The notes beneath the pieces were generated by a model that saw only the letters and a program-made list of their open reading frames with translations, was not told the origin of the DNA and did no database searches. From assembly GCA_038280095.1 (NCBI GenBank), contig JAYPYG010000001.1, positions 7,392-71,391 of the forward strand: a stretch of DNA of 64,000 nucleotides, written 5' to 3'. The DNA comes from Fidelibacterota bacterium (GTDB taxonomy: Bacteria; Fidelibacterota; Marinisomatia; Marinisomatales; Marinisomataceae). Shown in pieces: positions 483 to 44,812 of the stretch. Position numbers and translations under genes: made by a program. The stretch's first letter is position 1. The number at the start of each line of letters is the position of its first letter.

Positions 483-1565
483 TTAAAAGATTTTTTCTAG
501 TATTTTTTGAGTTGTTTTTTTGTAAGAAAAAGTGGATTGTAGGTTTTGCCCCGCAATATTAAACTTACCAACTTTCTTTTCTGCATCTTCCATCGCTGTC
601 ATCATGCCAAGCTCTGAAAGTGAGTGAATGTGACCCTGGTTGTAATCCAACCCAGTCTTAAAAAAGATTCCATCGTCTGGCTTTATTTTGTATTCAGGCT
701 CAACGAGGATGCTGTTTTCTGGGGTCGCCCAATCCTTGTGAGATGTATGGTTTTGCACACAGCTCCATTTTCCCAAACATGTGGCGTTGAAGGCTGGGAG
801 ATTCCATCCTTCTGCCCCGCTCAATCCTGTGAGGTCAATGTCGATGTTGTTAAGAAATTGATTTACATCTGAATTTTTAGGAAGAAACGGAAGGAAGTTG
901 ATGTTGAAATATTGTTTTCCTTCGAGAGCTTCGGCGAGTTCGGCGTTAAGCTTCTCTGTTGGCATAAATTTGTTTGTTATTGCGCAAGAGAGTAAATAAC
1001 CTTTCCTGTTTCCGTATTTCTTAGCCCAGGCTTGAATGATTTCTTTTGTTCTTTTTCTTTTTTCGAACTTACCCATTAGCCCAAAGTGGACTACACCTTT
1101 TTCAGCGACTCTTTTTCTTGGTTTTAAGTCTGGGTCGAATCCGAGGGGAATGTAGCTACAGGATTTAATTCCTGCGTTTTTAAAACAATTTGCTGCGTGC
1201 GAGGAGCTGAACATAACTCCATCGTGCATTTTGAGGATTTTTACCTCTGTGAAAGTTGGTTTGTCTAACTCGTAAAATGAGTAAAGAAAGCTTTTATCAG
1301 AAAGCTTATCGAATGAGTCTTTTATGTGCCAGATTTTGAAGGTAGGCGTATCTCTGTTTAGCATTTTGTGGCGATGCTTAAAGCACGCCCCTAGCCAGGC
1401 TCTAAAGTCTTCGCTTAATTCATTGAATACCGTGATGTCGATATTGTCTTGAACTGGGAATAGTGCAACTTCAAGGTCGAGCTGGAACATCTCCCTTAGT
1501 ATGTTAAGGGAGACGTTTCCTAGGCTCGTTGAGTTGATTGGGGCTTTTACTAGAAGCTTGTCCAT
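483..1565 (-). CDS. GT-B fold glycosyltransferase (GT4-like)
   Basis: 360 aa. The C-terminal Rossmann half carries GLSGAEGWNLPAFNATCLGKW, which parallels the GT4 E-G-F-G-L-x-x-x-E-A-M-A-x-G-x-P nucleotide-sugar motif. Confidence 0.55.
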   Translation of the reverse strand: MDKLLVKAPINSTSLGNVSLNILREMFQLDLEVALFPVQDNIDITVFNELSEDFRAWLGACFKHRHKMLNRDTPTFKIWHIKDSFDKLSDKSFLYSFYELDKPTFTEVKILKMHDGVMFSSSHAANCFKNAGIKSCSYIPLGFDPDLKPRKRVAEKGVVHFGLMGKFEKRKRTKEIIQAWAKKYGNRKGYLLSCAITNKFMPTEKLNAELAEALEGKQYFNINFLPFLPKNSDVNQFLNNIDIDLTGLSGAEGWNLPAFNATCLGKWSCVQNHTSHKDWATPENSILVEPEYKIKPDDGIFFKTGLDYNQGHIHSLSELGMMTAMEDAEKKVGKFNIAGQNLQSTFSYKKTTQKILEKIF

Positions 1566-3498: not shown

Positions 3499-3518
3499 GC
3501 CTTTCTTTTATTTTTACT

Positions 3519-3553
3519 GACCTATTGCTTGCAATAGGTCTGTTTTTGTTTTC
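3519..3553 (+). terminator. perfect 10-bp hairpin (GACCTATTGC-tt-GCAATAGGTC) followed by a T-rich run
   Basis: Stem 3519-3528 pairs with 3531-3540, followed by TGTTTTTGTTTTC. It has the shape of an intrinsic terminator on the + strand, but no + strand gene lies upstream, so the role is uncertain. Confidence 0.3.
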
Positions 3554-3654: not shown

Positions 3655-3683
3655 TTGACTTTTGTGATAAAATCCTTCATTAT
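3655..3683 (+). promoter_or_regulatory. sigma70-type promoter for glycan island I (TTGACT-17-CATTAT)
   Basis: -35 at 3655-3660 and -10 at 3678-3683. ATG 3693 is 9 nt after the -10, so the leader is very short or absent. Confidence 0.5.
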
Positions 3684-3692: not shown

Positions 3693-4433
3693 ATGACGAA
3701 AATTTCAATAATCACTTCCATGAAAACTGGAAGCGAACAACTAAAAAACCTCTGGGAGAATATTCAAGCTCAGTCTGCTTTCGATTATTGTGAGTGGATA
3801 ATTATCGATGCAGATTCCAAGGATGAGGATGCAAAAACCTTCGGAAGAGGGCTTCATGGAGATTTTTGGCCAAATGTTAGGTTTTTTGAATTGGATAGCG
3901 ACCCAGGACTTTATAGTGTATGGAATCAGGCGATTGAAAAATCAAAATCTCCATACATTACAAACATGAACATGGATGACAGGCGCGCACCTTGGGCTCT
4001 TGAGGAATTGGCTTTTTATCTAGACCAAAATAAGAGCGTTGACATAGTCTACGGAGAGTGCCTTGAAACAAACAAGCCCAATGAATCTTTTTTAAAAAAT
4101 TCCGCAACAACAAAATTCCCTTGCTTACCAGCCACGCTAGAAAATATGCTAAAAGCAAACTCACCACACGCAGCCCCAATGTGGCGTAAGTCCCTGCATG
4201 AGAAGTATGGGCTTTTTGACGAGGAGTATAAAATTTGCGGCGATTACGAAATGTGGATGAGGGCATTGAGAAAAGGAGCTAAATTCAAAGCAATCAATTC
4301 AGAATCATGTCTTTACTATAGGAATCCAGACGGATTAAGCACCAAAAAAAACAACATCCCTTTAGCCCGACAAGAAATCAACAAAATCAAAAACAAGGGC
4401 TTAGCAAATAAACCAAGGACTATATTTAAATGA
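3693..4433 (+). CDS. family 2 glycosyltransferase (GT-A fold)
   Basis: 246 aa. ISIITSMK...EWIIIDADSKDED and YITNMNMDDRRAPWALEEL match the GT2 N-terminal strand, the D-x-S-x-D region and the DXD motif. Confidence 0.7.
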   Translation: MTKISIITSMKTGSEQLKNLWENIQAQSAFDYCEWIIIDADSKDEDAKTFGRGLHGDFWPNVRFFELDSDPGLYSVWNQAIEKSKSPYITNMNMDDRRAPWALEELAFYLDQNKSVDIVYGECLETNKPNESFLKNSATTKFPCLPATLENMLKANSPHAAPMWRKSLHEKYGLFDEEYKICGDYEMWMRALRKGAKFKAINSESCLYYRNPDGLSTKKNNIPLARQEINKIKNKGLANKPRTIFK

Positions 4434-5008
4434 AAGCGTCTGTAGTTAGTTTCTCGAAAAAAGGCAGAGCTTTCAACGCTCCAGTTTCCTACGTCTACGC
4501 AAATATCGAAAGAAAGACGTATCACAAGACAAAAAAACCATCTTTCATATTCCCTATATACAGCGACAAAGGCCCAATATCTGGAGAAGACTTCTTAAAC
4601 AAGTTCAAGGAGGATGAAAAAAAAATAAAACACGAGTTAAAAATCATAACTCCTTACAAAAAAGAAGGCTCAACAGACGACTGTAAAGAGGTCAATTGGA
4701 GGCTACATGAAAACAACAGCGTGTACACAGATTACGACTTTGGCTTCCCTTATATCAGCGCTATAGCAACACCATTAATGTTCTCCTTGTATTTTTGCAA
4801 AGACAACAACATAAACACAATCATAATAGAAGGATTAAATTACCAAGCCTTAAGTGAAGAGAATAAATCTATATTATTAAGGTTCCTTCACTACGGAGAC
4901 AAGAACAAAATTTCTTTTATTGGAGTGAAATCTAAATCAACAAGAATTCCACTAATATTAAATCTAAACAAGGTAGACGTGGAGACAGTGATAAGCAAGT
5001 GCATTTAA
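4430..5008 (+). CDS. hypothetical protein (192 aa)
   Basis: ORF with an ATGA stop-start overlap to the upstream GT2. No motif recognised. Confidence 0.45.
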   Translation: MKASVVSFSKKGRAFNAPVSYVYANIERKTYHKTKKPSFIFPIYSDKGPISGEDFLNKFKEDEKKIKHELKIITPYKKEGSTDDCKEVNWRLHENNSVYTDYDFGFPYISAIATPLMFSLYFCKDNNINTIIIEGLNYQALSEENKSILLRFLHYGDKNKISFIGVKSKSTRIPLILNLNKVDVETVISKCI

Positions 5009-5793
5009 TAACAACATTTCCAATAAAAAATCACCCCAGAATAGAGGAGTACGGAACTTGCCTCCGCTTAAATCTATTCAACCCTTACATAAAAAAAATA
5101 ACAATAGTTACAGATGTTTTTAATGTGCCACACAACCTCGGCCTTACAAATCTTATAAGGGATTTCTCAATAAACTTTTATGGCCCAACAAACAAAGATG
5201 TCGAAAAAAATGAAATCACAATCCTAAAACATTGGCCAAAGTACAACGACATCTTCAAGATTGCAAACATGTCAACGCAAGACTACACGATAATAACAAA
5301 TGGAGACATCTTTCTAGATGAAAGCGTCCGAAAACTAAAAAGAATAAAATGGAATTCTAGCAAAAAATTTCTATGCATCACAAGAAGAGAGGTATCCTTA
5401 AGCCATGACCCTGTAGAAAATCACCTCTCATTACATTCATTGAGAGATAGAGTTAAAGAGCATGCTCCTGATGGCATGTGCGACTTCAATTCCATCCTCG
5501 AAATGCATCCCAATAAATTTAGAGGCAGTGCTGACGCATGGGCCTTTAAGGGAAAAATTTCGGAATTCGGCGAAGATGTTGAGCTTGGCACCTCTTTTTG
5601 TGACCACGCAATAGCATCCTTAGCAAAAGAGTCGGGTTATGAAATATACAACCCATGTCTAGATATCTCTATAAACCACCTACACAAAGCAATAGAAGGT
5701 AGACACAAAAAAGCTCGCGAAGAAAAAAAATACAGGAAAGGTATTAAAATACCAAACCTCACACCAATAACAAGAATAAAAGACATTAATTAA
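4999..5793 (+). CDS. hypothetical protein, possible GT-A-like transferase
   Basis: 264 aa with a GTG start. The only clue is IITNGDIFLDES, a DXD-like acidic motif after a beta strand. Confidence 0.3.
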   Translation: MHLITTFPIKNHPRIEEYGTCLRLNLFNPYIKKITIVTDVFNVPHNLGLTNLIRDFSINFYGPTNKDVEKNEITILKHWPKYNDIFKIANMSTQDYTIITNGDIFLDESVRKLKRIKWNSSKKFLCITRREVSLSHDPVENHLSLHSLRDRVKEHAPDGMCDFNSILEMHPNKFRGSADAWAFKGKISEFGEDVELGTSFCDHAIASLAKESGYEIYNPCLDISINHLHKAIEGRHKKAREEKKYRKGIKIPNLTPITRIKDIN

Positions 5794-5798
5794 TAATC

Positions 5799-6542
5799 AT
5801 GAAAAAAGTTTCAATGCTAACCGTTAGCTACGATAAAGACCTAGAGTGGCTCAAATACCAAAAACAATCATTTGATAAATTCTGCTCAGGATACCACTCA
5901 TACACAGTGGTTTCTTACCCAGAAGACAATGAGAGATTACAAAAATGGCTGAACAACGAAGGAATCAGTTCATTTACCTCCAATCATTCTAAAAACATAA
6001 AGAAGGGGTACATGAAACAGCAAATCATAAAACTTCACGCAGATGAGTTTTGTGGAGATGCGGATTATATCATGCACGTAGACAGTGATTGTGTTTTTCA
6101 CACAAAAAACAAACCGTCAGATTATTTCATTGAGGGAAAACCAGTAATGCTAATGACCTCATACGAAGGCCCAACGCTCAAGAATGACCAAGCTTACTGT
6201 TGGAAAAAAATCACAGAAGACGCCCTAGGAGAAAATGTTGAATACGAGTTCATGAGAAGAATTCCACTCATTTACCCAATTGGACTATACAAAGAGTTGA
6301 GAGATTTTATTATCAGCGTTCACGGCAAAACCATAACAGAGTATGTAGAAAACGGAGGCGCGCTTTCTGAATTCAACCTTCTTGGAGCGTATTGCTGGAG
6401 ATATCACAGGGACAAATTTTACTGGATTAACACAGACATCTCCGCTCCCCCCAAAGAAGTGCTTAGGCAGTTTTGGAGCTACGGAGGGGTAAGCAAAAAT
6501 GAAAAAGAAATCGACAAACTACTCTACAATAAAACCAACTAA
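5799..6542 (+). CDS. hypothetical protein, possible nucleotide-diphospho-sugar transferase fold
   Basis: 247 aa. N-terminal VSMLTVSYDKDLEWLKYQKQSF and IMHVDSDCVF (a DXD-like motif). Confidence 0.3.
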   Translation: MKKVSMLTVSYDKDLEWLKYQKQSFDKFCSGYHSYTVVSYPEDNERLQKWLNNEGISSFTSNHSKNIKKGYMKQQIIKLHADEFCGDADYIMHVDSDCVFHTKNKPSDYFIEGKPVMLMTSYEGPTLKNDQAYCWKKITEDALGENVEYEFMRRIPLIYPIGLYKELRDFIISVHGKTITEYVENGGALSEFNLLGAYCWRYHRDKFYWINTDISAPPKEVLRQFWSYGGVSKNEKEIDKLLYNKTN

Positions 6543-6547
6543 AAACA

Positions 6548-7498
6548 ATGAGAGGTATATATATAAAAGAAAGCTCCTTCTCAATGGGTAGGCTTGGAGA
6601 CAAGCTGAATGTAATATTGTCTCTCATAATAATGGCTTGCGAAACAAAATCAGTTTCACATATAATACAAGAAGAGGACAATCAAAATAAAGACCTTAGA
6701 CTAGCATTATCCCTTTTAGATTTAAAAAAATCCAAATACTTAAAACTAACAAGCGAGTACCCAGACCCCGTCACAAGGTTAGACTTTGCTGAAAAAAAAT
6801 TTAGGCTACACAAACCACATTACACAAATACACATCTGCTAGCAAAATCAGGAGGCGGAGTTAAGAAGTTTCTATTAGAGTATATCGAGAGCAATCTCAA
6901 CAAAAGAGCCTCGGTAAACTTAGAAATAAAGGACACGCCAAGGATTGACTTGAGAGACTTAAACAAAGCTCACCACGATGGTAAAATAAACCCCACAACA
7001 ATTAAGTCATCTATCGAGGACTTTAGGAAAGCGTTTGGGGAAACGACTTTAAATAAAAACTTGGCAGCAATCCATATTAGAAGGCAGGACTCCTTCAGGA
7101 CAGAGATAACTAACGGGTTTGACTCAAATTACTACACTAAACTAATCGACCATATATCCAAACAAAACAACGAGTTAAGAATCAAAATTTTCTCCCAAAA
7201 AGAGAATTCTGAAGATTTAAAAAAAATAAATCTCCCAGCAAACGCAACCATGTCATTAGCAAATTCAAACGACAGCAATAAAGCTGCACTAGACTTCAAA
7301 GAGATGTGTTCTGCCGAATTTTTATTCCCAGCGAAATCATACTTTTCGATAATGGCTTCCGTAATAAATAGAAACAAAATCTTCCACGACAAGGCTAAGG
7401 TTGGGCAACCGCACATAGCGAACGACAGAAGCCATGAATTTTCCTATGGAAATATTCGACAAGGATTCTATAATATAAGCGACATTATAATTCAGTAA
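6548..7498 (+). CDS. GT11-like (alpha-1,2-fucosyltransferase fold) glycosyltransferase
   Basis: 316 aa. AIHIRRQDSF matches the H-x-R-R-x-D motif I of GT11. DFKEMCSAEFLFPAKSYFSIMASVIN parallels the C-terminal GT11 motif (D-x-x-x-M-x-x-C ... S-T-F-S-W-W). Confidence 0.45.
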   Translation: MRGIYIKESSFSMGRLGDKLNVILSLIIMACETKSVSHIIQEEDNQNKDLRLALSLLDLKKSKYLKLTSEYPDPVTRLDFAEKKFRLHKPHYTNTHLLAKSGGGVKKFLLEYIESNLNKRASVNLEIKDTPRIDLRDLNKAHHDGKINPTTIKSSIEDFRKAFGETTLNKNLAAIHIRRQDSFRTEITNGFDSNYYTKLIDHISKQNNELRIKIFSQKENSEDLKKINLPANATMSLANSNDSNKAALDFKEMCSAEFLFPAKSYFSIMASVINRNKIFHDKAKVGQPHIANDRSHEFSYGNIRQGFYNISDIIIQ

Positions 7499-7503
7499 GA
7501 CCA

Positions 7504-8097
7504 ATGATTTCTCACAAACATAAATGCATATTCGTTCACATTCCGAGGACAGCTGGCTCATCAATAGAGAGCATGATTTGTGGAAAAGATTGGTGGTCCA
7601 TTGATTTAAAAACAAAACACATAACGGCAAGCACAAGCAAGGAAATATACTCAGAATACTGGGACGATTATTTCAAGTTTGCGTTTGTAAGAAACCCGTG
7701 GTCAAGGGCAGCTTCACTTTCGCTCTGGCCAAACCATTATGGAAGCTCAATCAAAGACGGCAAAATAGATTTGCGCGAATACGCAAAAAAACACCACCCC
7801 TTAAGCATAGATTATCGCTCAATAGAAAAAAATAAACAGATTAAAGTAAAATTTCCCAAAGGAGGCGTATACTTAAACACCCTAGGTGAAGACCTAGATT
7901 TTATAGGCAAATTTGAAAACCTCGAATCAGACATAAGCTACATTAAGGAAAAACTAAAAATAAAAACCAAAATGCCCCATGTGCAAAAAGGGAGTTTTAA
8001 CACAAAAGATTACAGAAAACTCTTCTCGGACGACTCTAAAAGAATAATACAGGAATGTCACGAACTGGATATACAGAAGTTTGGCTACGAATTCTAA
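7504..8097 (+). CDS. sulfotransferase family protein (Sulfotransfer_2-like)
   Basis: 197 aa. N-terminus MISHKHKCIFVHIPRTAGSSIE carries the PAPS 5'-phosphosulfate-binding loop (H-I-P-K/R-T-x-G-S/T-S). Clear paralog of 11564-12196. Confidence 0.7.
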   Translation: MISHKHKCIFVHIPRTAGSSIESMICGKDWWSIDLKTKHITASTSKEIYSEYWDDYFKFAFVRNPWSRAASLSLWPNHYGSSIKDGKIDLREYAKKHHPLSIDYRSIEKNKQIKVKFPKGGVYLNTLGEDLDFIGKFENLESDISYIKEKLKIKTKMPHVQKGSFNTKDYRKLFSDDSKRIIQECHELDIQKFGYEF

Positions 8098-8428
8098 AAA
8101 CTTTATGAAAATATCAAAAATAGCAAAAATGAAAGGAGGGTGGTTTATAGGAGACTTTGAGCCAACAGCCTTCCATTCAAAAGACTTTGAAGTGAGTTAT
8201 AAAGTTCATAAAAAGGGGGAGAAATGGGATACGCATACGCACAAAATCGCCACGGAAATAAACCTATTGATAGAGGGCAGGATGGAGAATTGCGGGGTGC
8301 CCATCAAGTCTGGCGATATATTTATTGTTTACCCGAATGAAAAAATGGAGCCAATATTTCATGAGGACTGTAAAATAATTTGCGTAAAAACACCAAGTGT
8401 AAAAGGTGACAAACATATCATACCATGA
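8081..8428 (+). CDS. cupin-fold protein
   Basis: 115 aa. KGEKWDTHTHKIATEINLLIEGRME...IKSGDIFIVYPNE fits the two-motif cupin barrel pattern. The start could instead be ATG 8106. Confidence 0.45.
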   Translation: MATNSKNFMKISKIAKMKGGWFIGDFEPTAFHSKDFEVSYKVHKKGEKWDTHTHKIATEINLLIEGRMENCGVPIKSGDIFIVYPNEKMEPIFHEDCKIICVKTPSVKGDKHIIP

Positions 8429-9537
8429 ACATACTAATACCAATGGCTGGACTTGGTTCCAGATTCAAAAGAGCGGGCTTTCTCAAAGAAAAGCCCTTGA
8501 TAGAATTCAACGGAAAAACACTAATAGAGCACTCCGTGGAAACACTGGGCATAGACGGTAGAATTATATTCGTCACAAGAAAGTACGAAGACAGGGAAGC
8601 GAACAAAGAGCTTTCCTCGGTCCTAAGTAAGATAAAAAAGAATCACATAGAAATAGTTGCCCAAAAACCAACAAGCGGAGCAGCAGAGACAGCTTTGCTT
8701 GCCAAAAAGTACATAAACAACAACGAGCCACTTATAATCTCCAACTGCGACCAGTTAATGGATTGGAATCACGAGCTTTTCATAAATGAGGTTATGGATG
8801 CAAACGTAGACGGAGCCGTAGTTACTCACACATCAACAGACCCAAAACATTCTTACGCCAAAACTGTTAAATCGCGCAATTCAAATAAAATAGCCAAAAT
8901 AGTAGAAAAAGAGCTCGTATCCGACATGGCCCTAACTGGAATCCACTTCTGGAAGAGCGGGGCGGATTTTGTTGAATCCGCACAAGACCTTGTCATGAAT
9001 TACGAAAACTTAAGAAGGAAAGAGTGCTTTATTTCAGAGACGTACAACATATTAATAAATAAAGGTAAAAATATAATCGCCCACCACGTCCCCGAAAACT
9101 CATACACGTCACTTGGAACGCCCAAAGACCTAAAAACATGCCTCGGTAAAATAAAAGAATTCAAGTCAAAAAAACCAAAAACCATATTCTGTGATATAGA
9201 CGGGACAATCCTTTCTCACGCCCATTGTTTTAGCGAGCTAAAAGATGGAAAACAAATCCCGCTAAATAAAACCCTAGACAAGTTTGACGAATGGGATTCA
9301 TTGGGTCACAAAATAATACTGTGCACAGCAAGAAAAGAGTCAGCTAGGGCCACGACCGAAAAACACCTAACATCACTCGGTTTTTGTTGGGACGAGCTTA
9401 TTATGGGGGTAACAAGCGGAGACAGAGTGCTAATCAATGACAAACTTAAACCGAGCGACAAAGATAGAGCTATAGCCATAAACTCAATAACAAACAAAGG
9501 TTTTTCGCAAGAAGAATTAAAAAAAGCAGGGTTATGA
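8425..9537 (+). CDS. bifunctional sugar/alcohol-phosphate nucleotidyltransferase - HAD phosphatase fusion
   Basis: 370 aa. The N-terminus MNILIPMAGLGSRFKRAGF..KPLIEFNGKTLIEH carries the NTP-transferase G-x-G-x-R signature. The C-terminal third has the HAD motifs IFCDIDGTIL, ILCTARKE and INDKLKPSDKD. Confidence 0.65.
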   Translation: MNILIPMAGLGSRFKRAGFLKEKPLIEFNGKTLIEHSVETLGIDGRIIFVTRKYEDREANKELSSVLSKIKKNHIEIVAQKPTSGAAETALLAKKYINNNEPLIISNCDQLMDWNHELFINEVMDANVDGAVVTHTSTDPKHSYAKTVKSRNSNKIAKIVEKELVSDMALTGIHFWKSGADFVESAQDLVMNYENLRRKECFISETYNILINKGKNIIAHHVPENSYTSLGTPKDLKTCLGKIKEFKSKKPKTIFCDIDGTILSHAHCFSELKDGKQIPLNKTLDKFDEWDSLGHKIILCTARKESARATTEKHLTSLGFCWDELIMGVTSGDRVLINDKLKPSDKDRAIAINSITNKGFSQEELKKAGL

Positions 9538-9974
9538 AATTAATATCCCACAGGGGGAACGTGTACGGTAGAGAGCCTAACGAAGAGAACACAATCAAAC
9601 ACATAACCCGCGCATTGAGTCTCGGCTACGATGTAGAAATCGACTTGTGGTCAATCTGTAACAAAATATACCTTGGGCACGATAGTCCCGACTACGAAGT
9701 AAGCATAAACTTCTTAATGGAGAATAAGGGCAAACTATGGTGTCACGCTAAAAACATTGAAGCATTATGCGCACTAAACTCTAAAAAACTAAACACATTT
9801 TTTCACGATAAGGACGATGCAACAATAACAACAAAAGGGTTCCTATGGCTCAGCCCGTGGGTAGAATATATCCCCAAAAACTCCATTATCGTGTCAGATG
9901 AAATCAAAAACATAAAAAACAAGGCGGGGTTCAAAACCCTATACGGAGCCTGCTTAAATAATTTACATGGATAA
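9534..9974 (+). CDS. glycerophosphodiester phosphodiesterase-like protein (short)
   Basis: 146 aa. MKLISHRGN...EENTIKHITRALSLGYDVEIDLW...LGHD matches the GDPD H-R-G / E-N-T / E-x-D / H-D catalytic pattern. It is shorter than typical GDPD enzymes. Confidence 0.5.
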   Translation: MKLISHRGNVYGREPNEENTIKHITRALSLGYDVEIDLWSICNKIYLGHDSPDYEVSINFLMENKGKLWCHAKNIEALCALNSKKLNTFFHDKDDATITTKGFLWLSPWVEYIPKNSIIVSDEIKNIKNKAGFKTLYGACLNNLHG

Positions 9975-10800
9975 CGCAGCAATAATAGTCGTAGGTCAAA
10001 TAAGAAACAAGTCCCCAAATCAAAAAAAACTTTTTTCAAAAAACCTAGAAATCTTCAATAGAGAGAACGTATTCTTTTCAACATACGAAGAGGACGCTCA
10101 AAAACTTAAAGGGTGGAAAGCGAATATACTCACAATAAAAAGAAGCGAACTTCTCAACACAGACTCGCCTGGACTAAAATGGATATTTCCAAAAGACTTC
10201 AAACATACTTTAGCAGAAGGTAGAGTTATTCAGCATGTTCACTTAAGAAATTGCATAGAGAGGTTTTGTGATAAAATCTCTAAATACGACTACGTATTAA
10301 AGACCAGGGTGGATGTGAATTCCAATATACAACAATGTATTCAGTCTATCCAAAAGAACCCCAATAAATTCTCAATGGCGTCAGATTTAAGCTACGGCTG
10401 CGGAATAAACTTGTTCATGAAAATGTTTCACGACAATAACTTTTTAAACTTTGTTAAAAAATTAATTAATAATGACAAAAGCTACGTTTCACTAAACCAT
10501 AAAAATCTCCTAGGCTCAATTAACTCAAACCCAAACTGCTTTAAATGGTGGTGGATAAGATACCCAAACTCAATAAAAACAGTATCCAAGGATTCCGTTT
10601 TGAGTCTTTGTAAAAAAAACATAAATAACAACGCCGACATCCAGACATATGAAATAAAAAAAGATTGGGCAGAAAAGACAATAGACAACAAGAACTTTTC
10701 AAATCATTTTTGTTCGGAAAAATATCTAGCCCTATACGCCTTATTGTTTTCTGAAATCAACCAGCTCCAATCTCCAGCAATACCCACAATTGTCAGATAA
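9967..10800 (+). CDS. hypothetical protein (277 aa), paralog-family member
   Basis: Shares an N-terminal strand (IIVVGQIRN) and the motif KYDYVLKTRVDV with 33918-34664 (QYDGVIRSRPDY). Confidence 0.4.
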   Translation: MDNAAIIVVGQIRNKSPNQKKLFSKNLEIFNRENVFFSTYEEDAQKLKGWKANILTIKRSELLNTDSPGLKWIFPKDFKHTLAEGRVIQHVHLRNCIERFCDKISKYDYVLKTRVDVNSNIQQCIQSIQKNPNKFSMASDLSYGCGINLFMKMFHDNNFLNFVKKLINNDKSYVSLNHKNLLGSINSNPNCFKWWWIRYPNSIKTVSKDSVLSLCKKNINNNADIQTYEIKKDWAEKTIDNKNFSNHFCSEKYLALYALLFSEINQLQSPAIPTIVR

Positions 10801-10817
10801 ATATAAACAAAAAGACA

Positions 10818-11567
10818 ATGAAAAAATTAGCTGTAATAATATTTGGGTGCCTAGGAAGGTCTTTACATATAACCCACAAGAATCATAAGGAAAGAATACT
10901 AAACAAAATAAATCTAGACCATGATTTGATTTACGTAAATAACCATACACAAGAAATAGATGGGGTAAAATCATCTCCCAGATTCAGAGAGATAGCAAAG
11001 CCTAACCTACTTATAGAACTCAACCAAGAGTATATTGACTCAAAAATATTAAAAACCCACCCACATTACAAAGACTATTTCAAAGACAATTATATTAATA
11101 TTCACAAAAAAAACCCACTAAGGAATAGCTACATAGAGACCATAGTATCAAAAACCCTAAACTCACCCTTTCTCACAGAGCATACACACGCGTTAGTGTT
11201 TTGCGCTGATTTTTGGTTAGAAAAATACTTTGACGAGTCCTGGTTAGATAAAAATGGCGTTGTGACGGGAGACCAAAACCCAGGGGGAGGATACACAAAT
11301 GGATTTTATGCTGGCAAAAAAGAGCAAGTAAGCAAGCTGCTAGATTCATTTTATGACTTAAAAAACTTGTCAAAGTTGGATTACGAAGGTATACTAAAGC
11401 TAAACGCAAAAAAACACAGAATACCAATATTCCCAGAACCCATAAGATTCCTGAAAATTAGAGCAAACGGAGATTTGGCGTATAGAGGTAAAAAACACTC
11501 GTGGAAAAAGATAAAACACATTGAATCCGATTACATAAACAGCAAACAAACAGACAATCAAGAATGA
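10818..11567 (+). CDS. hypothetical protein (249 aa)
   Basis: ORF in the island I array with an N-terminal strand LAVIIFGCLGRS. No assignable motif. Confidence 0.4.
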   Translation: MKKLAVIIFGCLGRSLHITHKNHKERILNKINLDHDLIYVNNHTQEIDGVKSSPRFREIAKPNLLIELNQEYIDSKILKTHPHYKDYFKDNYINIHKKNPLRNSYIETIVSKTLNSPFLTEHTHALVFCADFWLEKYFDESWLDKNGVVTGDQNPGGGYTNGFYAGKKEQVSKLLDSFYDLKNLSKLDYEGILKLNAKKHRIPIFPEPIRFLKIRANGDLAYRGKKHSWKKIKHIESDYINSKQTDNQE

Positions 11568-12196
11568 TAAGCCACAAACACAAACTCATCTTCATACACA
11601 TACCAAAGTGCGCTGGCACCAGCATTGAACGCTCCTTATTCAATAATCACCAACCAACACAAACCAACTACAAAAATTGCTGCGGATGGGATGAGAAAAA
11701 CAAAATCTGGATGCAGCATGCGACAGCAAAACAAATCAAAGAATTATACGTCGATGACTTTTACAGCTTTACCAGGTTTACTGTAGTCAGAAATCCCTGG
11801 GACAGGGCGGTATCAGATTACATGTGGGTTAAGCGTGAACTAAAAATAGGCGGCAGCTTAAAAGATTACTTGCTCCTCGAAGGTAAGTTCAATGATAATA
11901 GACTAAAACTTCCACAAAGAAACAAATCAACAAGAGCAGACCACATAAGACCACAGAGTGACTTTATTTTTTCGCAAAGCGGAGAGAATCTCGTAGAGCA
12001 TATATGCAAATTTGAAAATCTCCAACAGGAGTTTGATGATGTACTCCTTAAAAACCACCTACCAAAACTTAAATTACCTCATGTAAACAAAACAAACCAT
12101 AAACACTACACAGAATACTACAACAATGAAACAATTGAAATTGTTGAGCGAAAATTCTCCAAAGATATAAAAAACTTTAACTACAAATTCCAGTAA
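11564..12196 (+). CDS. sulfotransferase family protein (Sulfotransfer_2-like)
   Basis: 210 aa. MISHKHKLIFIHIPKCAGTSIE and VVRNPWDRAVS parallel 7504-8097 (FVRNPWSRAAS). Confidence 0.7.
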   Translation: MISHKHKLIFIHIPKCAGTSIERSLFNNHQPTQTNYKNCCGWDEKNKIWMQHATAKQIKELYVDDFYSFTRFTVVRNPWDRAVSDYMWVKRELKIGGSLKDYLLLEGKFNDNRLKLPQRNKSTRADHIRPQSDFIFSQSGENLVEHICKFENLQQEFDDVLLKNHLPKLKLPHVNKTNHKHYTEYYNNETIEIVERKFSKDIKNFNYKFQ

Positions 12197-12197
12197 A

Positions 12198-12740
12198 ATG
12201 AACAAATTCTGCATTATAACACCACCGAGGACTGGTAGCACACTGCTAACAAATATCATTCACGGATTTTTTGACCCCAACGCTCCCTGCTCTTTCGGAC
12301 TAAGAAAAAGGACTATAAAATTTATAAGCGGCAAGGAAAATAATAGTGTAATCCTTAAAAGCCACGATGTAAAATTAATAAACTATCCAATAGCAGAAAA
12401 CTGTTACATAATAAGCTCAATTAGGCCAGAAATCAACAAAGTTGTACCTCCACTAAAAAACAAAAACAGCAACATCTTGATATTGGATTACACAACCGAC
12501 CTCTTGTACGCGTCTCCATACAGCGAGAACAACGGAAAGACCCTTGACGACGTTATTAAAAACGTAGCAAGTAAGATTAAAGAGGAGTTCAGCATACCAA
12601 TTCTAACAAGCCAAATCAATCAGGCAAAAGATAGGGTTCTAAAAATGAACGAAGCGTACGAGAAAATCAAACACAAACCCTTTGCGAAGTTCGACGAATT
12701 TTATCACATACACGGAAATCATAGAAATAGAGGAAGATGA
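12198..12740 (+). CDS. sulfotransferase-like P-loop protein
   Basis: 180 aa. FCIITPPRTGSTLLTNII matches the 5'-PSB loop P-K/R-x-G-S/T-T of PAPS-dependent sulfotransferases. Confidence 0.45.
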   Translation: MNKFCIITPPRTGSTLLTNIIHGFFDPNAPCSFGLRKRTIKFISGKENNSVILKSHDVKLINYPIAENCYIISSIRPEINKVVPPLKNKNSNILILDYTTDLLYASPYSENNGKTLDDVIKNVASKIKEEFSIPILTSQINQAKDRVLKMNEAYEKIKHKPFAKFDEFYHIHGNHRNRGR

Positions 12741-12793: not shown

Positions 12794-12822
12794 TTGACTT
12801 AAGTCTAAAACCGTGATAAACT
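12794..12822 (+). promoter_or_regulatory. sigma70-type promoter with extended -10 (TTGACT-17-TGaTAAACT)
   Basis: -35 at 12794-12799, TG at 12814-12815 and -10 at 12817-12822. The ORF start (TTG 12829) is 6 nt after the -10. Confidence 0.45.
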
Positions 12823-30752: not shown

Positions 30753-32306
30753 ATGTCTCTTTGGTACGAATGCGGAAACGGCTCAGTAAGAGTCACATCA
30801 GGATGGGCCTACAAAAAGCATCCTCTAGATTTTTACATATGCTGCACAGGTCCTTCTTTGAGAGAAGTCTCAAACTCGGACTTTAAGCATCCAGGCATTT
30901 TTACGATAGGAATCAACACATCCTACCCATACATAAAACCAGACCTATGGATAGGCATGGACAAACCAGAGTGTTACGATTCAAAATTATGGTGGGAGCC
31001 ATTTAGGAAAATTTGCAGAGGCCCTTATATAAATACGCGCTTCCACGGCTATGAGCTAAAATCTATGCCAAACACCTTTTTTGCAGACGTGAAAAAGCCA
31101 GAAAAAGATGTGGAAATTTTTGAAAGAAGGGGTCATGATATTGATTTTATTTGGAGAAAAAACACTTTAGTCGTTGCTCTTCACACTGCGATATGGATGG
31201 GTGCGCAGAGAATTCATCTAGTTGGTTGTGACCTCGGCGGACCAAGGGATTATTACGATAATAGAGTTTTGACAGAAGAGCAAAAAGCACACAACAAAAA
31301 ACTGTACGACTCTCAAGTTATCTGGCTAAAGTGGTTTTATCAAGCAGCAAAAAAACGCAGGATAGAAGTAATATCCTGCTCGGAGCAGGCTCCAATAAAC
31401 GATATAGTTACTTACAAGAATATTCATGAGAGCTTAATTGAGTCTCGAAGAAGAGTTCCTCAAATAAACTCTGAAATAGTTCACGCTATTGATGCCAATA
31501 AGAAGCCAAAAAAAGAACAGCCTAAAGCGGAACCGAAAAAGCTGGCAAGCAAAAAAGCAGAAGTGGAAGTTTTAAACCCGAATGATAAGCTTAGAGTATT
31601 CGTTGGAGCATCAGAACAAGAGGGTGTTCCTACGAAAGTCTTAGAATCCTCTATAAAAAGGCGCGCAACAATTCCTGTTGGAGTTTACTCCCTTGGCGAG
31701 GTTATGGAAAAGAAAGGAATTAAAGTTCCCACGCCAAAAGACCCACAAAACAGACCTAAGACAAATTTTTCATTTCACCGCTGGTGCATACCTGAAATTT
31801 GCGACTATAAAGGAAAGGCAGTTTACTGTGATTCAGACCAAATCGTCTTAGAGGATGTAGCAGAACTACTTAAATTTTTCGACAAATATCCAGACAAAAG
31901 CGTATTAGTAATGTCAGATAAAAAGGATTATATCGAAACATCAGTGATGCTAGTAGACTGCGAAAAAGTAAATTGGGACATACGTAAGATTGTCCAAAAT
32001 TTAGATGACGGAAGCCTTAACTACAAATCCTTAATGTTTAAAATGGGGCTAGAGAGCAAAGGCGACTACATCATCGGCGCAGGTCCAGAATGGAATAGCC
32101 TTGACGAATTTGAAGAGGGCAAAACCAAACTCCTTCACTATACAAATAGAGGAACTCAACCATACAAAGGAGGCAAGAGTCCACTAACGCACCTTTGGAT
32201 GAATGAATTGTGCGCAGCCCTCAACATAGGATACGTATCCAAAGACGAAGTTGCGGGTGCTGTTAAAAATAGGTGGATTTCTACGAACTGCCTTCAAGCG
32301 AAATGA
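30753..32306 (+). CDS. two-domain glycosyltransferase: CstII/DUF115 (MAF)-like domain + GT8-like domain
   Basis: 517 aa. The N-domain FYICCTGPSLREVSNSDFKHPGIFTIGINTSY and NTLVVALHTAIWMGAQRIHLVGCDLGG parallel the CstII/DUF115 motifs (x-G-N-G-P-S-L ... and ... G-x-x-x-I-x-L-x-G-x-D). The C-domain has FSFHRWCIPEI...AVYCDSDQIVLEDVAELLKF, a GT8 DXD region. Confidence 0.5.
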   Translation: MSLWYECGNGSVRVTSGWAYKKHPLDFYICCTGPSLREVSNSDFKHPGIFTIGINTSYPYIKPDLWIGMDKPECYDSKLWWEPFRKICRGPYINTRFHGYELKSMPNTFFADVKKPEKDVEIFERRGHDIDFIWRKNTLVVALHTAIWMGAQRIHLVGCDLGGPRDYYDNRVLTEEQKAHNKKLYDSQVIWLKWFYQAAKKRRIEVISCSEQAPINDIVTYKNIHESLIESRRRVPQINSEIVHAIDANKKPKKEQPKAEPKKLASKKAEVEVLNPNDKLRVFVGASEQEGVPTKVLESSIKRRATIPVGVYSLGEVMEKKGIKVPTPKDPQNRPKTNFSFHRWCIPEICDYKGKAVYCDSDQIVLEDVAELLKFFDKYPDKSVLVMSDKKDYIETSVMLVDCEKVNWDIRKIVQNLDDGSLNYKSLMFKMGLESKGDYIIGAGPEWNSLDEFEEGKTKLLHYTNRGTQPYKGGKSPLTHLWMNELCAALNIGYVSKDEVAGAVKNRWISTNCLQAK

Positions 32307-34664: not shown

Positions 34665-34791
34665 AACAGACCATTAATCAAAAAAAAATTAGAGCGTTTG
34701 AAGCCTCAAAAATGCGGGGGCTAGGCACACCAGAAGACTTAAATCACTACTTAGTAAATCACAAAAGCATCAACAAATAAATCATAACAAC

Positions 34792-44806: not shown

Positions 44807-44812
44807 AAGAAA

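What the first reader, a model, noticed from the sequence alone, without database searches (positions are those of the whole stretch)
3693..12740. Phage-borne glycan-modification island I: 13 co-directional genes mixing glycosyltransferases, three sulfotransferase-like genes and phospho-sugar/alcohol activation
- One uninterrupted + strand array is driven by a TTGACT-17-CATTAT promoter.
- It encodes a GT2, two or three DXD-type candidates, and a GT11-like fucosyltransferase fold (HIRRQD plus a C-terminal SYFSIMAS motif).
- It also encodes two Sulfotransfer_2 paralogs, a third PAPS-loop protein, a cupin, an NTP-transferase-HAD fusion, a short GDPD-like enzyme and two proteins of unknown family.
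- An additional GT-B transferase sits on the other arm (483-1565).
- Surface-glycan genes occur in some phages, but a pathway this size centred on sulfation is not something I can map to a described phage system.
- By inference, the product could be a sulfated and possibly fucosylated or phosphodiester-decorated glycan on the host envelope (receptor masking, superinfection exclusion) or on the virion.
Basis: partly seen in the sequence, partly recalled or inferred. Interest (0 to 1): 0.7.

Follow-up and report, generated by a model that had tools for sequence, protein, structure and literature searches.

The report
Phage glycan-building and sulfating gene island
A previously unseen large phage carries a tight 13-gene operon that looks built to assemble a sugar chain and add sulfate to it. 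It resembles the little-understood "cell-surface" gene clusters of marine cyanophages, but is unusually rich in sulfotransferases, whose role in phages is still unknown.

Summary
Window 3693-12740 is one tightly packed + strand array of 13 real genes in a novel large phage.

**Supported assignments**
- GT2 (g1).
- A remote GT11-like transferase (g5).
- Two Sulfotransfer_2 paralogs (g6, g12).
- A third protein with a minimal PAPS-sulfotransferase fold (g13).
- A metal-type cupin (g7).
- An NTP-transferase-HAD fusion (g8).
- A 146-aa protein with the N-terminal catalytic motif of GDPD phosphodiesterases (g9).

**Not supported**
- Five genes (g2, g3, g4, g10, g11) stay unassigned, so the "DXD" calls are not verified.
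- The promoter match exists but is no better than chance.

**Context**
- The island is not a recent host capture. The closest non-self homologs are 42-57% identical.
Cyanophages S-CAM9 and S-SKS1 carry clusters with orthologs of g8, g9 and g3. S-CAM9 also has an unannotated Sulfotransfer_2 and a weak GT11-like match.
- The g7-g8-g9 trio, or at least the g8-g9 pair, recurs in marine phage contigs and in chloroviruses.
- Metagenomic contigs carrying g13 homologs hold islands over 20 kb long, with 3-5 sulfotransferases and a sulfatase.

**Reading**
- All 13 proteins are soluble and no export machinery is present.
- I read the island as a cytoplasmic glycan-assembly and sulfation operon.
- The acceptor is unresolved. 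I slightly favour virion proteins over host lipid-linked glycans.

The parts
3655..3683 (+). Promoter-like site TTGACT-17-CATTAT in the 194-bp divergent intergenic region
   Evidence: Seen in the sequence and listed by the scan at 9 of 12 matches. Such matches are not above chance in this region (34 found against 27.3 +/- 6.3 expected), so function is unproven.
3693..4433 (+). g1, GT2-family (GT-A) glycosyltransferase
   Evidence: Pfam Glycos_transf_2, E 3.7e-10, 40.4 bits against a cut-off of 23.3. Weak PHROG GtrB-like hit. The Pfam match begins at residue 5 (KISIITS), which favours the 3693 start.
4430..5008 (+). g2, unknown function
   Evidence: No Pfam, PHROG or NCBIfam hit. No transmembrane segment.
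4999..5793 (+). g3, unknown; member of a family found in phage glycan islands
   Evidence: tblastn homolog is S-SKS1 SWZG_00036 (27% identity over 229 aa, E 5e-10), which lies inside that phage's nucleotide-sugar/GT island. A second homolog is in huge phage LR756501. No Pfam hit.
5799..6542 (+). g4, unknown; possible GT-A-like protein
   Evidence: Only a sub-threshold DUF6492 hit (E 1.3e-3, 18.3 bits against a cut-off of 22.9). A hydrophobic strand followed by DSD is visible by eye. No phage homolog.
6548..7498 (+). g5, remote GT11-like (fucosyltransferase-type) glycosyltransferase
   Evidence: Only 2 close homologs among 5.8 billion proteins. An exhaustive profile search gave 161 hits, and 31 of 61 tested are Pfam Glyco_transf_11. 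hhalign gives 99.8% over 242 columns. The HIRRQD motif aligns with the family's IHIRRGD. The AlphaFold2 model was too poor to use (pLDDT 44).
7504..8097 (+). g6, Sulfotransfer_2 sulfotransferase
   Evidence: Pfam E 9.8e-12. phrog_3347 E 6.9e-21. The PAPS motifs HIPRTAGSS and RNPWSRAAS are intact.
8081..8428 (+). g7, small metal-type cupin; probable sugar-phosphate isomerase (inferred)
   Evidence: Carries the cupin motif G-X5-HXH-X4-E-X6-G. phrog_24762 E 1e-28. Weak Cupin_2 PDB hit. Homologs lie beside the NTP-transferase in L003 (51% identity) and L018 (42%).
8425..9537 (+). g8, sugar-phosphate nucleotidyltransferase fused to a C-terminal HAD phosphatase
   Evidence: Pfam NTP_transferase E 1e-11 and Acid_phosphat_B E 6.8e-9. 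NCBIfam hits to RmlA, GlmU and AglF types are all far below their cut-offs. phrog_3980 E 8e-57. Homologs occur in L003 (57%), Tara contig L020 (41%), cyanophages (33-37%) and chlorovirus ATCV (33%).
9534..9974 (+). g9, 146-aa GDPD-like (PLC-like phosphodiesterase motif) protein
   Evidence: 959 homologs of about 145 aa; none of the 120 listed has a Pfam domain. Invariant residues H6, R7, E35, D37, H49 and D50. The family profile hits GDPD 7e0v at E 7e-4 over the first 50 residues. Found near an NTP-transferase in six other loci.
9967..10800 (+). g10, unknown; tentatively related to the DUF7796-like 'GQxR ... YDxVxxxRxD' family of phage and chlorovirus glycan islands
   Evidence: hhalign against 8 such proteins gives E 0.006, probability 6%, over 103 columns. 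The columns cover both motifs, VVGQIR and YDYVLKTRVD. This is not significant.
10818..11567 (+). g11, unknown function
   Evidence: No family hit. Only its N-terminus aligns with the DUF7796-like profile.
11564..12196 (+). g12, Sulfotransfer_2 sulfotransferase
   Evidence: Pfam E 4.7e-14 over the full length. phrog_3347 E 3.2e-26. Motifs HIPKCAGTS and RNPWDRAVS are present. 37% identical to a sulfotransferase in L011.
12198..12740 (+). g13, minimal sulfotransferase-fold P-loop protein (a new small family)
   Evidence: Four homologs in all. AlphaFold2 pLDDT 81.8, pTM 0.82. The Foldseek top 46 PDB hits are all PAPS sulfotransferases; best E 2e-4, TM 0.32-0.49. Invariant residues PPRTGST, H56 and R76-P-E. 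It is not a detectable Sulfotransfer_2 member.
483..1565 (-). Separate glycosyltransferase on the other arm; association with the island is uncertain
   Evidence: phrog_2170 glycosyltransferase, E 1.7e-17 over the full length. Weak hit to a GT group 1 structure, 5i45, E 0.023. No Pfam hit.
12794..12822 (+). Second promoter-like site (TTGACT-17-TAAACT, preceded by TG) in the 88-bp gap after g13; marks the likely end of the unit
   Evidence: A consensus match only.

Best explanation
The island is a single operon of a lytic-type large phage. It assembles and sulfates a glycan in the cytoplasm of the infected cell.

**Step 1 (part shown, part inferred): donor supply.**
- A precursor module conserved among viruses supplies an activated donor.
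- It consists of a metal cupin (g7, probably an aldose-ketose phosphate isomerase), a nucleotidyltransferase fused to a HAD phosphatase (g8), and a mini GDPD-like phosphodiesterase (g9).
- The donor is an NDP-sugar, or an NDP-linked sugar or polyol phosphate.

**Step 2: transfer.**
- A GT2 enzyme (g1) and a GT11-like, probably fucosyl-type, transferase (g5) add residues.
- Some of g3, g4, g10, g11 and the transferase at 483-1565 may also contribute.

**Step 3: sulfation.**
- Two Sulfotransfer_2 enzymes (g6, g12) and a minimal sulfotransferase-fold protein (g13) add sulfate from host-made PAPS.

**Acceptor.**
- All 13 proteins are soluble. There is no initiating phosphoglycosyltransferase, flippase, polymerase or exporter.
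- The acceptor must therefore be reachable from the cytoplasm.
- I favour phage virion proteins, giving a sulfated glycan coat. Host lipid-linked LPS or capsule intermediates are the close second.
For: **Enzyme identities:**

**Operon structure:** junctions range from a 17-nt overlap to a 17-nt gap.

**Conserved precursor module**
- g8 and g9 homologs co-occur in L003, S-CAM9, Tara contig L020, chlorovirus ATCV L022 and L018. No g9 homolog was detected in the S-SKS1 locus.
- L003 and L018 also carry a g7 homolog. L020 has a separate Cupin_2 gene.
- The NTP-transferase has fused to HAD domains of different subfamilies at opposite ends: C-terminal in the window and in L003 (full-length match), N-terminal HAD_2 in S-CAM9, ATCV and Tara. 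This is inferred to be independent fusion, and it argues for consecutive steps.

**Soluble proteins, no export genes:**

**Hints for virion acceptors**
- In L003 the trio follows a collagen-repeat protein and two PHROG virion structural proteins. It precedes a 1241-aa GT2+GT25+FkbM+WavE enzyme.
- In ATCV the module lies about 700 bp from the major capsid protein gene.
- The islands around g13 homologs carry GT90, GT61, GT31 and GT25 families.
- Virion glycosylation by phage enzymes has a precedent (Freeman et al. 2023, cited in PMC12619734). From my own knowledge, chloroviruses do the same.

**Fucose logic:** cyanophage clusters combine a cupin mannose-6-phosphate isomerase, GDP-fucose synthesis genes and a GT11 enzyme (PMC9602691).
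Against: - No biochemical data exist for any of these proteins.
- Five of the 13 genes are unassigned.
- The sugar made by g7-g9 is unknown. NCBIfam matches to RmlA, GlmU and AglF types are all far below their cut-offs.
- In the window the island sits among replication genes behind an early-looking promoter, not beside structural genes.
- No candidate glycoprotein (collagen-like or Ser/Thr-rich) lies in the 64 kb.
- No GDP-mannose dehydratase, fucose synthase or PAPS-synthesis gene was seen among the ORFs scanned.
- The cyanophage literature interprets homologous clusters as host-surface modifiers.
- Gene adjacency in other viruses is weak evidence.
Confidence: 0.4

Rival explanations
1. Host-envelope remodelling. 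The soluble phage enzymes decorate host undecaprenyl-linked O-antigen, LPS-core or capsule intermediates at the cytoplasmic face. The host's own flippase and ligase then export them. This changes the infected cell surface, giving receptor masking, superinfection exclusion or protection of progeny from cell debris.
For: - GT2 and GT11 are families typical of LPS synthesis. GT25 and WavE domains of the same kind occur in the related locus L003.
- This is the published interpretation of the homologous cyanophage clusters (PMC9602691, PMC12801897).
- The island's position suggests early-type expression alongside replication genes.
- From my own knowledge, cytoplasmic bacterial carbohydrate sulfotransferases exist (NodH, LpsS).
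Against: - The 13 genes contain no membrane protein, flippase, polymerase, ligase or initiating transferase.
- No near-identical host homologs exist.
- The same precursor module occurs in chloroviruses, whose hosts have no bacterial envelope.
- A benefit for a lytic phage has never been demonstrated.
Confidence: 0.33
2. DNA hypermodification. The transferases glycosylate, and perhaps sulfate, modified bases in phage DNA, as T-even phages do, to evade restriction.
For: - The island lies between a dNMP kinase and SSB on one side and UvsX and DnaB on the other.
- Stenotrophomonas phage DLP6 also has a lone sulfotransferase inside its replication module.
- Phage glycosyltransferases that hypermodify DNA are known (Pyle et al. 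2024, cited in PMC12619734).
Against: - The only thymidylate-synthase-family protein in the window looks like a canonical ThyA. It has the Cys and the dUMP-specifying Asn, and its 60 best PDB hits are all thymidylate synthases apart from three chains named only 'ORF70'.
- No hydroxymethylase was seen.
- From my own knowledge, GT2, GT11 and the families in related islands (GT90, GT61, GT31) act on glycans or proteins.
- Sulfated DNA is unknown.
Confidence: 0.04
3. The sulfotransferase-fold proteins do not sulfate a glycan. They act on a small metabolite, peptide or lipid, or they use a different donor. The island would then be a mixed set of unrelated auxiliary genes.
For: - The function of phage sulfotransferases is stated to be unknown (PMC10580990).
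- Sulfotransferases linked to peptide or collagen-like substrates have been predicted in bacteria (PMC2938197).
- g13 is a minimal 180-aa form.
Against: - The sulfotransferases are interleaved with glycosyltransferases in one tightly coupled operon.
- The same interleaving recurs in L011, L013 and S-CAM9.
- The PAPS-binding motifs are intact.
Confidence: 0.1
4. A recently captured host capsule or O-antigen locus, carried as a passenger.
For: The island is the lowest-GC 9-kb stretch of the window, 37.1% against 40.9% for the rest.
Against: - The GC shift is small and third-position GC is similar to the backbone.
- The best non-self homologs are 42-57% identical, and where context was examined they lie in viral-type contigs.
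- g8 has no close relative in GTDB genomes.
- The same phage, with the island, occurs on four separate contigs.
Confidence: 0.03

Closest known systems
Cyanophage 'cell wall synthesis and modification' / LPS-type gene clusters (S-CAM9, S-SKS1, S-SCSM1, S-SCSM2R, P-SSM2)
   Same: - Long one-strand clusters in lytic phages that mix nucleotide-sugar enzymes with many glycosyltransferases, including GT2, GT11 and GT25 (PMC9602691, PMC12801897).
- Direct homologs of g8 (33-37% identity), g9 (32-35%) and g3 (27%).
- S-CAM9 gp061 is a Sulfotransfer_2, and gp070 weakly matches g5.
- No experimental function is known for these clusters.
   Different: - The host phage here is unrelated: no near DNA match, and a DnaE-type polymerase rather than a T4-type backbone.
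- No epimerase or dehydratase genes.
- Three sulfotransferase-fold genes out of 13, against the one detected in the S-CAM9 cluster.
- The HAD domain is of another subfamily and sits at the other end of the nucleotidyltransferase.
- The g13 family and g5's own subfamily (its two close homologs) have no detectable member in the phage records or in IMG/VR.
Chlorovirus capsid glycosylation machinery (PBCV-1 type, virus-encoded cytoplasmic enzymes; my own knowledge), and the ATCV locus found here
   Same: - Soluble virus-encoded transferases with no membrane export step.
- ATCV carries the g9 homolog (52% identity) next to a HAD-NTP-transferase fusion and a DUF7796 protein, about 700 bp from the major capsid protein gene.
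   Different: - Eukaryotic host.
- No sulfotransferases in that locus.
- The function of the ATCV module is itself untested.
Mycobacteriophage virion glycosylation (Freeman et al. 2023, cited in PMC12619734 and PMC12801897)
   Same: Phage-encoded glycosyltransferases decorate capsid and tail-tube proteins in the cytoplasm. No export genes are needed.
   Different: - Only a few genes are involved there.
- No nucleotide-sugar module and no sulfation.
- No sequence relationship was tested or seen here.
Temperate-phage O-antigen conversion (GtrABC and O-acetylase systems)
   Same: Phage genes that alter a surface glycan. g1 has a weak PHROG GtrB-like hit (E 7.6e-4).
   Different: From my own knowledge, Gtr systems need membrane proteins (GtrA flippase, membrane-bound GtrB, GtrC). 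None of the 13 proteins has a transmembrane segment.
T-even type DNA glycosylation
   Same: Soluble phage transferases encoded near replication genes.
   Different: - No hydroxymethylase was found; the ThyA looks canonical.
- The enzyme families differ.
- Far more genes are present than DNA glycosylation needs.
Bacterial carbohydrate sulfotransferases (NodH, LpsS, mycobacterial Stf0; my own knowledge)
   Same: Soluble PAPS-dependent enzymes acting on glycans or glycolipids in the cytoplasm, with PAPS-binding loop motifs.
   Different: - g6 and g12 are short (197-210 aa) Sulfotransfer_2 forms of a phage family (phrog_3347).
- g13 is a 180-aa minimal form that matches no Pfam model.

Membership tests
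Glycosyltransferase family 2 (Pfam PF00535), g1 | HMM match above the curated cut-off | tested here: met
   40.4 bits against 23.3, E 3.7e-10, residues 5-155.
Glycosyltransferase family 2 (Pfam PF00535), g1 | Acidic nucleotide- and metal-binding motifs of GT-A enzymes | tested here: met
   IIIDADS and NMNMDD are visible in the translation. This is a reading by eye.
Sulfotransfer_2 (Pfam PF03567), g6 and g12 | HMM match above the curated cut-off | tested here: met
   46.0 and 53.5 bits against 22. phrog_3347 E 7e-21 and 3e-26.
Sulfotransfer_2 (Pfam PF03567), g6 and g12 | PAPS-binding loops (5'-phosphosulfate loop PKxxGTS; 3'-phosphate motif RNPxxRxxS) | tested here: met
   HIPRTAGSS and RNPWSRAAS in g6; HIPKCAGTS and RNPWDRAVS in g12.
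Sulfotransfer_2 (Pfam PF03567), g6 and g12 | PAPS-dependent sulfate transfer | not testable with these tools
   Needs an enzyme assay.
PAPS sulfotransferase fold, g13 | Sequence-profile membership in a sulfotransferase family | tested here: not met
   No Pfam, NCBIfam or PDB sequence hit. hhalign against a 10-sequence Sulfotransfer_2 profile aligns only 22 P-loop columns, probability 21%.
PAPS sulfotransferase fold, g13 | Three-dimensional fold | tested here: met
   The model has pLDDT 81.8. The Foldseek top 46 PDB hits are all sulfotransferases; best E 2e-4, probability up to 1.00, but TM only 0.32-0.49. Viral sulfotransferases are among the BFVD hits.
Glycosyltransferase family 11 (Pfam PF01531), g5 | Direct HMM match | tested here: not met
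   No Pfam hit at E <= 0.1.
Glycosyltransferase family 11 (Pfam PF01531), g5 | Homology through intermediate sequences | tested here: met
   161 profile hits. 31 of 61 are Pfam GT11, best E 9e-11. hhalign 99.8%, E 3e-28, over 242 columns. This is partly circular, because the hits were found with g5's own profile.
Glycosyltransferase family 11 (Pfam PF01531), g5 | HxRRxD donor-binding motif | tested here: met
   HIRRQD at residues 176-181. H176, R178, R179 and D181 are invariant or nearly invariant across 61 sequences.
Glycosyltransferase family 11 (Pfam PF01531), g5 | Fold and GDP-fucose specificity | tested here: inconclusive
   The AlphaFold2 model has pLDDT 44 and is unusable. Donor specificity needs an assay.
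Sugar-phosphate nucleotidyltransferase (PF00483) plus HAD phosphatase, g8 | HMM matches above the cut-offs for both domains | tested here: met
   NTP_transferase 45.4 bits against 21.2; Acid_phosphat_B 36 against 27; Hydrolase_3 24.7 against 20.9. The DIDGT motif is present.
Sugar-phosphate nucleotidyltransferase (PF00483) plus HAD phosphatase, g8 | Assignment to a specific equivalog (RmlA, GlmU, GalU, HddC and similar) | tested here: not met
   All NCBIfam scores are far below their cut-offs; for example rmlA_long scores 56.6 against 320.
Glycerophosphodiester phosphodiesterase (GDPD), g9 | Catalytic motif HR ... E.D ... HD | tested here: met
   H6, R7, E35, D37, H49 and D50 are invariant in 43 sequences. 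The profile hits GDPD 7e0v at E 7e-4 and 7e2a at E 9e-3.
Glycerophosphodiester phosphodiesterase (GDPD), g9 | Full-length TIM-barrel domain or Pfam GDPD match | tested here: not met
   No Pfam hit for g9, and none recorded for any of the 120 listed homologs. The protein is 146 aa, against 224-255 aa for the matched GDPD chains. No structure model was made.
Cupin superfamily, g7 | Two-motif metal-binding cupin signature | tested here: met
   G-EKWDT-H-T-H-KIAT-E-INLLIE-G fits G-X5-HXH-X3,4-E-X6-G. Weak Cupin_2 PDB hit, E 0.024. No Pfam hit.
Self-contained envelope polysaccharide locus (Wzx/Wzy, ABC or Gtr type) | Membrane components: initiating phosphoglycosyltransferase, flippase, polymerase or GtrA/GtrC | tested here: not met
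   No island protein has a transmembrane-like segment in a 19-residue Kyte-Doolittle scan. No such Pfam family was found.
Phage DNA glycosylation system | A pyrimidine hydroxymethylase providing the acceptor base | tested here: not met
   The only thymidylate-synthase homolog in the window has Cys and Asn in ThyA positions and matches thymidylate synthases at E 5e-58. The rest of the genome was not seen.
Cyanophage-type glycan ('cell wall synthesis and modification') cluster | One-strand cluster of glycosyltransferases plus nucleotide-sugar enzymes in a lytic phage, sharing orthologs with known clusters | tested here: met
   g8, g9 and g3 have orthologs inside the S-CAM9 and S-SKS1 clusters. 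S-CAM9 also has a Sulfotransfer_2.
Virion glycosylation system | Glycan covalently attached to capsid or tail proteins | not testable with these tools
   Needs virions and mass spectrometry. Only contextual hints were found.

The most novel reading that the evidence does not exclude
This phage, and the metagenomic contigs with even larger islands (L011, L013: 3-5 sulfotransferases, and in L011 a sulfatase, among many GT families mostly known from eukaryotes), make sulfated glycans on their own virions. That would be the first sulfated glycoconjugate produced by a virus of bacteria. The donor would come from a nucleotide-activation module shared between phages and chloroviruses, which includes a new mini GDPD-like enzyme family with about a thousand members and no Pfam model.
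Probability: 0.25. Interest if true: 0.8.

Novelty: new variant of a known kind. Interest (0 to 1): 0.55.

Why it matters
Phage glycan clusters are common in marine genomes but have no demonstrated product. The role of phage sulfotransferases is explicitly unknown (PMC10580990).

- This island is compact and fully soluble, so it is a practical entry point. Expressing 13 genes, or just g6, g12, g13 and g7-g9, could show what phages sulfate and which activated sugar the conserved viral module makes.
- If the product coats virions, it would add sulfation to the ways phages shape their surface. That would bear on adsorption to mucus or algal polysaccharides, on immune recognition, and on phage-host specificity.
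- If the product goes to the host envelope, it would be a direct test of the long-standing cyanophage "surface remodelling" hypothesis.

Tried and rejected
**Searches that found nothing or too little**
- Near-identity DNA search of the island against 50,697 phage records: no match.
- Close relatives of the backbone via UvsX: none in IMG/VR, and only a 1.4-kb JGI contig. I therefore could not test whether the island varies among relatives.
- g13 family in IMG/VR: none.
- g8 in GTDB genomes: none.
- Single-sequence searches of PDB sequences for g5, g7, g12 and g13: uninformative.
- g13 profile against PDB sequences: nothing.
- g4 and g10 against phage records: no match.
- Local phmmer and blastp among all fetched loci: no extra links for g2, g4, g10 or g11.
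- Literature searches for DUF7796 and DUF6492: nothing.

**Analyses that were inconclusive**
- AlphaFold2 of g5 with 3 sequences: pLDDT 44, unusable.
- Linking g10 and g11 to the S-CAM9, S-SKS1 and ATCV DUF7796-like paralogs: hhalign probabilities of 1-8%, motif-level only.
- A repeated GTACYTTAWAGG-like motif upstream of the island: not enriched.
- The promoter as evidence: the scan is not above chance.

**Tools unavailable**

**Interpretations rejected**
- A recently captured host locus.
- DNA hypermodification.
- A Gtr-type conversion system.
- Reasons for each are in the rival explanations and the membership test.

Full report
**What the window is**

The window belongs to a large, previously unsequenced phage.
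- It encodes SSB, a dNMP kinase, a UvsX/RecA-like recombinase, a DnaB helicase, a primase and class I ribonucleotide reductase.
- It also encodes a DnaE-type polymerase, HNH homing endonucleases, a virion structural protein, NAD-salvage enzymes and a tmRNA.
- The island has no near DNA match in 50,697 phage records. The replication proteins are below 35% identical to anything there.
- The same sequence lies on a 72-kb contig assembled from run SRR26337517 and on three further contigs.

**The observation**

From 3693 to 12740 there are 13 + strand ORFs. Their junctions range from a 17-nt overlap to a 17-nt gap. An independent gene caller finds the same 13 genes.
- The array is preceded by a 194-bp divergent intergenic region.
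- It is followed by an 88-bp gap with a second TTGACT-type site.
- These consensus matches are not more frequent than in shuffled sequence (34 against 27.3 +/- 6.3), so I do not count the promoter as evidence.
- The island is the lowest-GC 9-kb stretch of the window (37.1% against 40.9%). Third-position GC is close to that of the backbone.

**Gene by gene**

| Gene | Coordinates | Assignment | Key evidence |
|---|---|---|---|
| g1 | 3693-4433 | GT2 enzyme | Pfam E 3.7e-10 |
| g5 | 6548-7498 | Remote GT11-like transferase | See below |
| g6, g12 | 7504-8097, 11564-12196 | Sulfotransfer_2 paralogs, 32% identical | Pfam E 1e-11 and 5e-14; phrog_3347; both PAPS-binding motifs intact |
| g7 | 8081-8428 | Metal-type cupin | Full G-X5-HXH-X4-E-X6-G signature; phrog_24762 |
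| g8 | 8425-9537 | Nucleotidyltransferase-HAD fusion |; no NCBIfam equivalog comes near its cut-off, so the substrate is open |
| g9 | 9534-9974 | Mini GDPD-like protein | See below |
| g13 | 12198-12740 | Minimal sulfotransferase fold | See below |
| g3 | 4999-5793 | Unassigned | Homolog inside the S-SKS1 glycan island |
| g4 | 5799-6542 | Unassigned | Sub-threshold DUF6492 hit only |
| g10 | 9967-10800 | Unassigned | Shares the GQxR and YDxVxxxRxD motifs of a DUF7796-like family, without statistical support |
| g2, g11 | 4430-5008, 10818-11567 | Unassigned | No family hit |
| - | 483-1565 (- strand) | Glycosyltransferase | PHROG E 1.7e-17; weak hit to a GT group 1 structure |

*g5.* It has no direct Pfam hit and only two close homologs among 5.8 billion proteins.
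- An exhaustive profile search found 161 relatives. Of 61 tested, 31 are Pfam Glyco_transf_11.
- hhalign between g5's small family and those relatives gives 99.8% over 242 columns.
- g5's HIRRQD aligns with the nearly invariant IHIRRGD.

*g9.* It belongs to a family of at least 959 proteins of about 145 aa. None of the 120 listed members has a Pfam domain, and the family includes chlorovirus proteins.
- Its invariant H-R, E-x-D and H-D residues match the catalytic N-terminus of GDPD structures, at E 7e-4.
- The protein is far too short for the full barrel.

*g13.* It has only four homologs and no sequence-level link to sulfotransferases beyond the P-loop.
- A confident AlphaFold2 model (pLDDT 82) matches sulfotransferases in its first 46 PDB hits.

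The "DXD" claim is therefore unverified.

**Related loci**

The trio g7-g8-g9 is a conserved viral module. A g8 homolog occurs in six other loci, five of them with a g9 homolog:
- IMG/VR contig L003, with 57%, 51% and 41% identity to g8, g7 and g9.
- The 334-kb JGI contig L018.
- Tara contig L020, which also has a Cupin_2 gene, a CMP-sugar synthetase-type gene, a GT2, a TylF methyltransferase and epimerases.
- Cyanophage S-CAM9.
- Cyanophage S-SKS1, where only g8 and g3 homologs were detected.
- Chlorovirus ATCV, where the g9 homolog abuts a HAD-NTP-transferase fusion and a DUF7796 protein, about 700 bp from the major capsid gene.

The nucleotidyltransferase has fused to HAD domains of different subfamilies at opposite ends. 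This implies that the two activities act consecutively.

Other context from these loci:
- S-CAM9's cluster contains a gene annotated as hypothetical that is a Sulfotransfer_2 (E 8e-9). It also contains a GT6 enzyme and a weak match to g5.
- g13 homologs (52% identical) sit in metagenomic contigs L011 and L013, in one-strand islands longer than 20 kb.
  - L011 carries five Sulfotransfer_2 genes, a Sulfotransfer_4, a sulfatase, UDP-galactopyranose mutase and an FkbM methyltransferase. L013 carries three Sulfotransfer_2 genes.
  - Between them they carry GT90, GT34, GT61, GT25, GT31, GT2 and Nucleotid_trans families.
- The window itself has a second, smaller cluster at about 30.7-36.3 kb, with a weak Sulfotransfer_2 ORF and a methyltransferase.
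- Sulfotransferases close to g12 are rare in sequenced phages: 3 of 50,697 records by tblastn.

**How it most likely works**

*Shown.* The operon encodes a nucleotidyltransferase-phosphatase, at least two glycosyltransferases and three sulfotransferase-fold proteins. All are soluble.

*Inferred.*
- g7-g9 make an activated donor. One reading is fructose-6-P to mannose-6-P by the cupin, as for the type II isomerases that cyanophages carry (PMC9602691). Conversion to the 1-phosphate and nucleotide activation by g8 would follow.
- The GDPD-like step and the true substrate are unknown.
- g1, g5 and perhaps other genes then build an oligosaccharide. g6, g12 and g13 sulfate it with host PAPS. No PAPS-synthesis gene was seen among the ORFs scanned.
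- No initiating transferase, flippase, polymerase or transporter is present. The acceptor must therefore be accessible from the cytoplasm.

*Why I slightly favour virion proteins.*
- In L003 the trio follows a collagen-repeat protein and two virion structural proteins. It precedes a 1241-aa GT2+GT25+FkbM+WavE enzyme.
- Chloroviruses carry the module.
- Phage virion glycosylation has a precedent (Freeman et al. 2023, cited in PMC12619734).

*The close rival.* The enzymes could decorate host lipid-linked LPS or capsule intermediates. This is the standard interpretation of the cyanophage clusters (PMC9602691, PMC12801897).

*DNA hypermodification is unlikely.* The window's thymidylate-synthase homolog is canonical, and the enzyme families act on glycans.

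**Comparison and novelty**

The island is a new variant of a known but functionally unexplored kind, the cyanophage-type glycan cluster.

It differs from that kind in four ways:
- It sits in an unrelated phage backbone.
- Three of its 13 genes encode sulfotransferase-fold proteins.
- It carries a new minimal sulfotransferase family (g13) and an orphan GT11-like family (g5).
- It lacks epimerase and dehydratase genes.

The literature states that the role of phage sulfotransferases is unclear (PMC10580990). I found no report of a sulfated glycan made by a phage in the library searches. That is absence of evidence from a limited library.

**Verdict**

Interest is moderate to fairly high (0.55). 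The main value lies in the sulfotransferase-rich lineage and in the conserved, uncharacterised g7-g8-g9 module. The existence of a phage glycan island is not new in itself.

Noticed in passing
window 36421-36819 (+): A full-length tmRNA gene in a phage genome (ARAGORN; Rfam RF00023, 132 bits). ARAGORN reads a 29-residue tag peptide ending in ALAA, which looks unusually long to me.
   Followed up: partly
window 30753-36322 (+): A second, smaller modification cluster. It holds a 517-aa protein with a weak MptE-like hit, three unknown ORFs, a weak Sulfotransfer_2 ORF (34792-35334, E 0.002, similar to sulfotransferases of L011 and L013) and a SAM methyltransferase (35331-35882).
   Followed up: partly
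window 9534-9974; loci L002, L003, L018, L020, L022: The g9 family has at least 959 members of about 145 aa, and none of the 120 listed has a Pfam domain. It keeps the GDPD catalytic N-terminus, occurs in phages and chloroviruses, and lies near an NTP-transferase (fused to a HAD domain in four of the five loci). This looks like an undescribed enzyme family.
   Followed up: partly
L011 1-20607 (ENA ERZ8136075 contig_1344); L013 1-20543 (ERZ27265258 k141_640810): One-strand islands longer than 20 kb. L011 has five Sulfotransfer_2 genes, a Sulfotransfer_4, a sulfatase, UDP-galactopyranose mutase and an FkbM methyltransferase; L013 has three Sulfotransfer_2 genes. Both carry several of GT90, GT34, GT61, GT25, GT31, GT2 and Nucleotid_trans, and both have a 573-aa HATPase-like protein in the middle. 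I could not establish whether these contigs are phages.
   Followed up: partly
L002 11381-12094 and 5967-6698 (Synechococcus phage S-CAM9): gp061, annotated as hypothetical, is a Sulfotransfer_2 (E 8e-9). gp069 is a GT6-family enzyme (E 2e-22).
   Followed up: yes
L016 14762-17494 (Synechococcus phage S-SKS1): - The gene annotated 'phosphoheptose isomerase' reads as a small HAD phosphatase (DLDGT).
- Its neighbour reads as an APH/choline-kinase-like kinase (HGDLxxxNIL).
- In the gene annotated '3,4-dihydroxy-2-butanone 4-phosphate synthase', the N-terminal ~260 residues match g8's NTP-transferase domain, so it appears to be an NTP-transferase fused to another domain.
- The phosphatase and kinase readings are judged by eye only.
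   Followed up: no
window 3516-3543: A 13-nt near-perfect palindrome (ACTGACCTATTGC / GCAATAGGTCTGT) followed by a T-run. It lies in the divergent intergenic region between the two arms, upstream of both first genes. It may be an operator or a regulatory hairpin.
   Followed up: no
window 43907-48212 (+): An NAD-salvage set: a PRPP-synthetase-like protein, nicotinamide phosphoribosyltransferase, and a 494-aa fusion of an AAA_28 domain with a thymidylate-kinase domain.
   Followed up: no
L024 6980-7594 (Stenotrophomonas phage DLP6): A lone sulfotransferase sits inside the replication module, just upstream of the DNA polymerase and UvsX. This is the same type of neighbourhood as the island here.
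   Followed up: no
L003 97-3864 and 11937-15662 (IMGVR_UViG_3300043427_002950): A 1255-aa collagen-repeat protein and a 1241-aa four-domain enzyme (GT2, GT25, FkbM methyltransferase, WavE) flank the g8-g7-g9 trio. The arrangement recalls the multi-domain transferases of giant viruses.
   Followed up: partly
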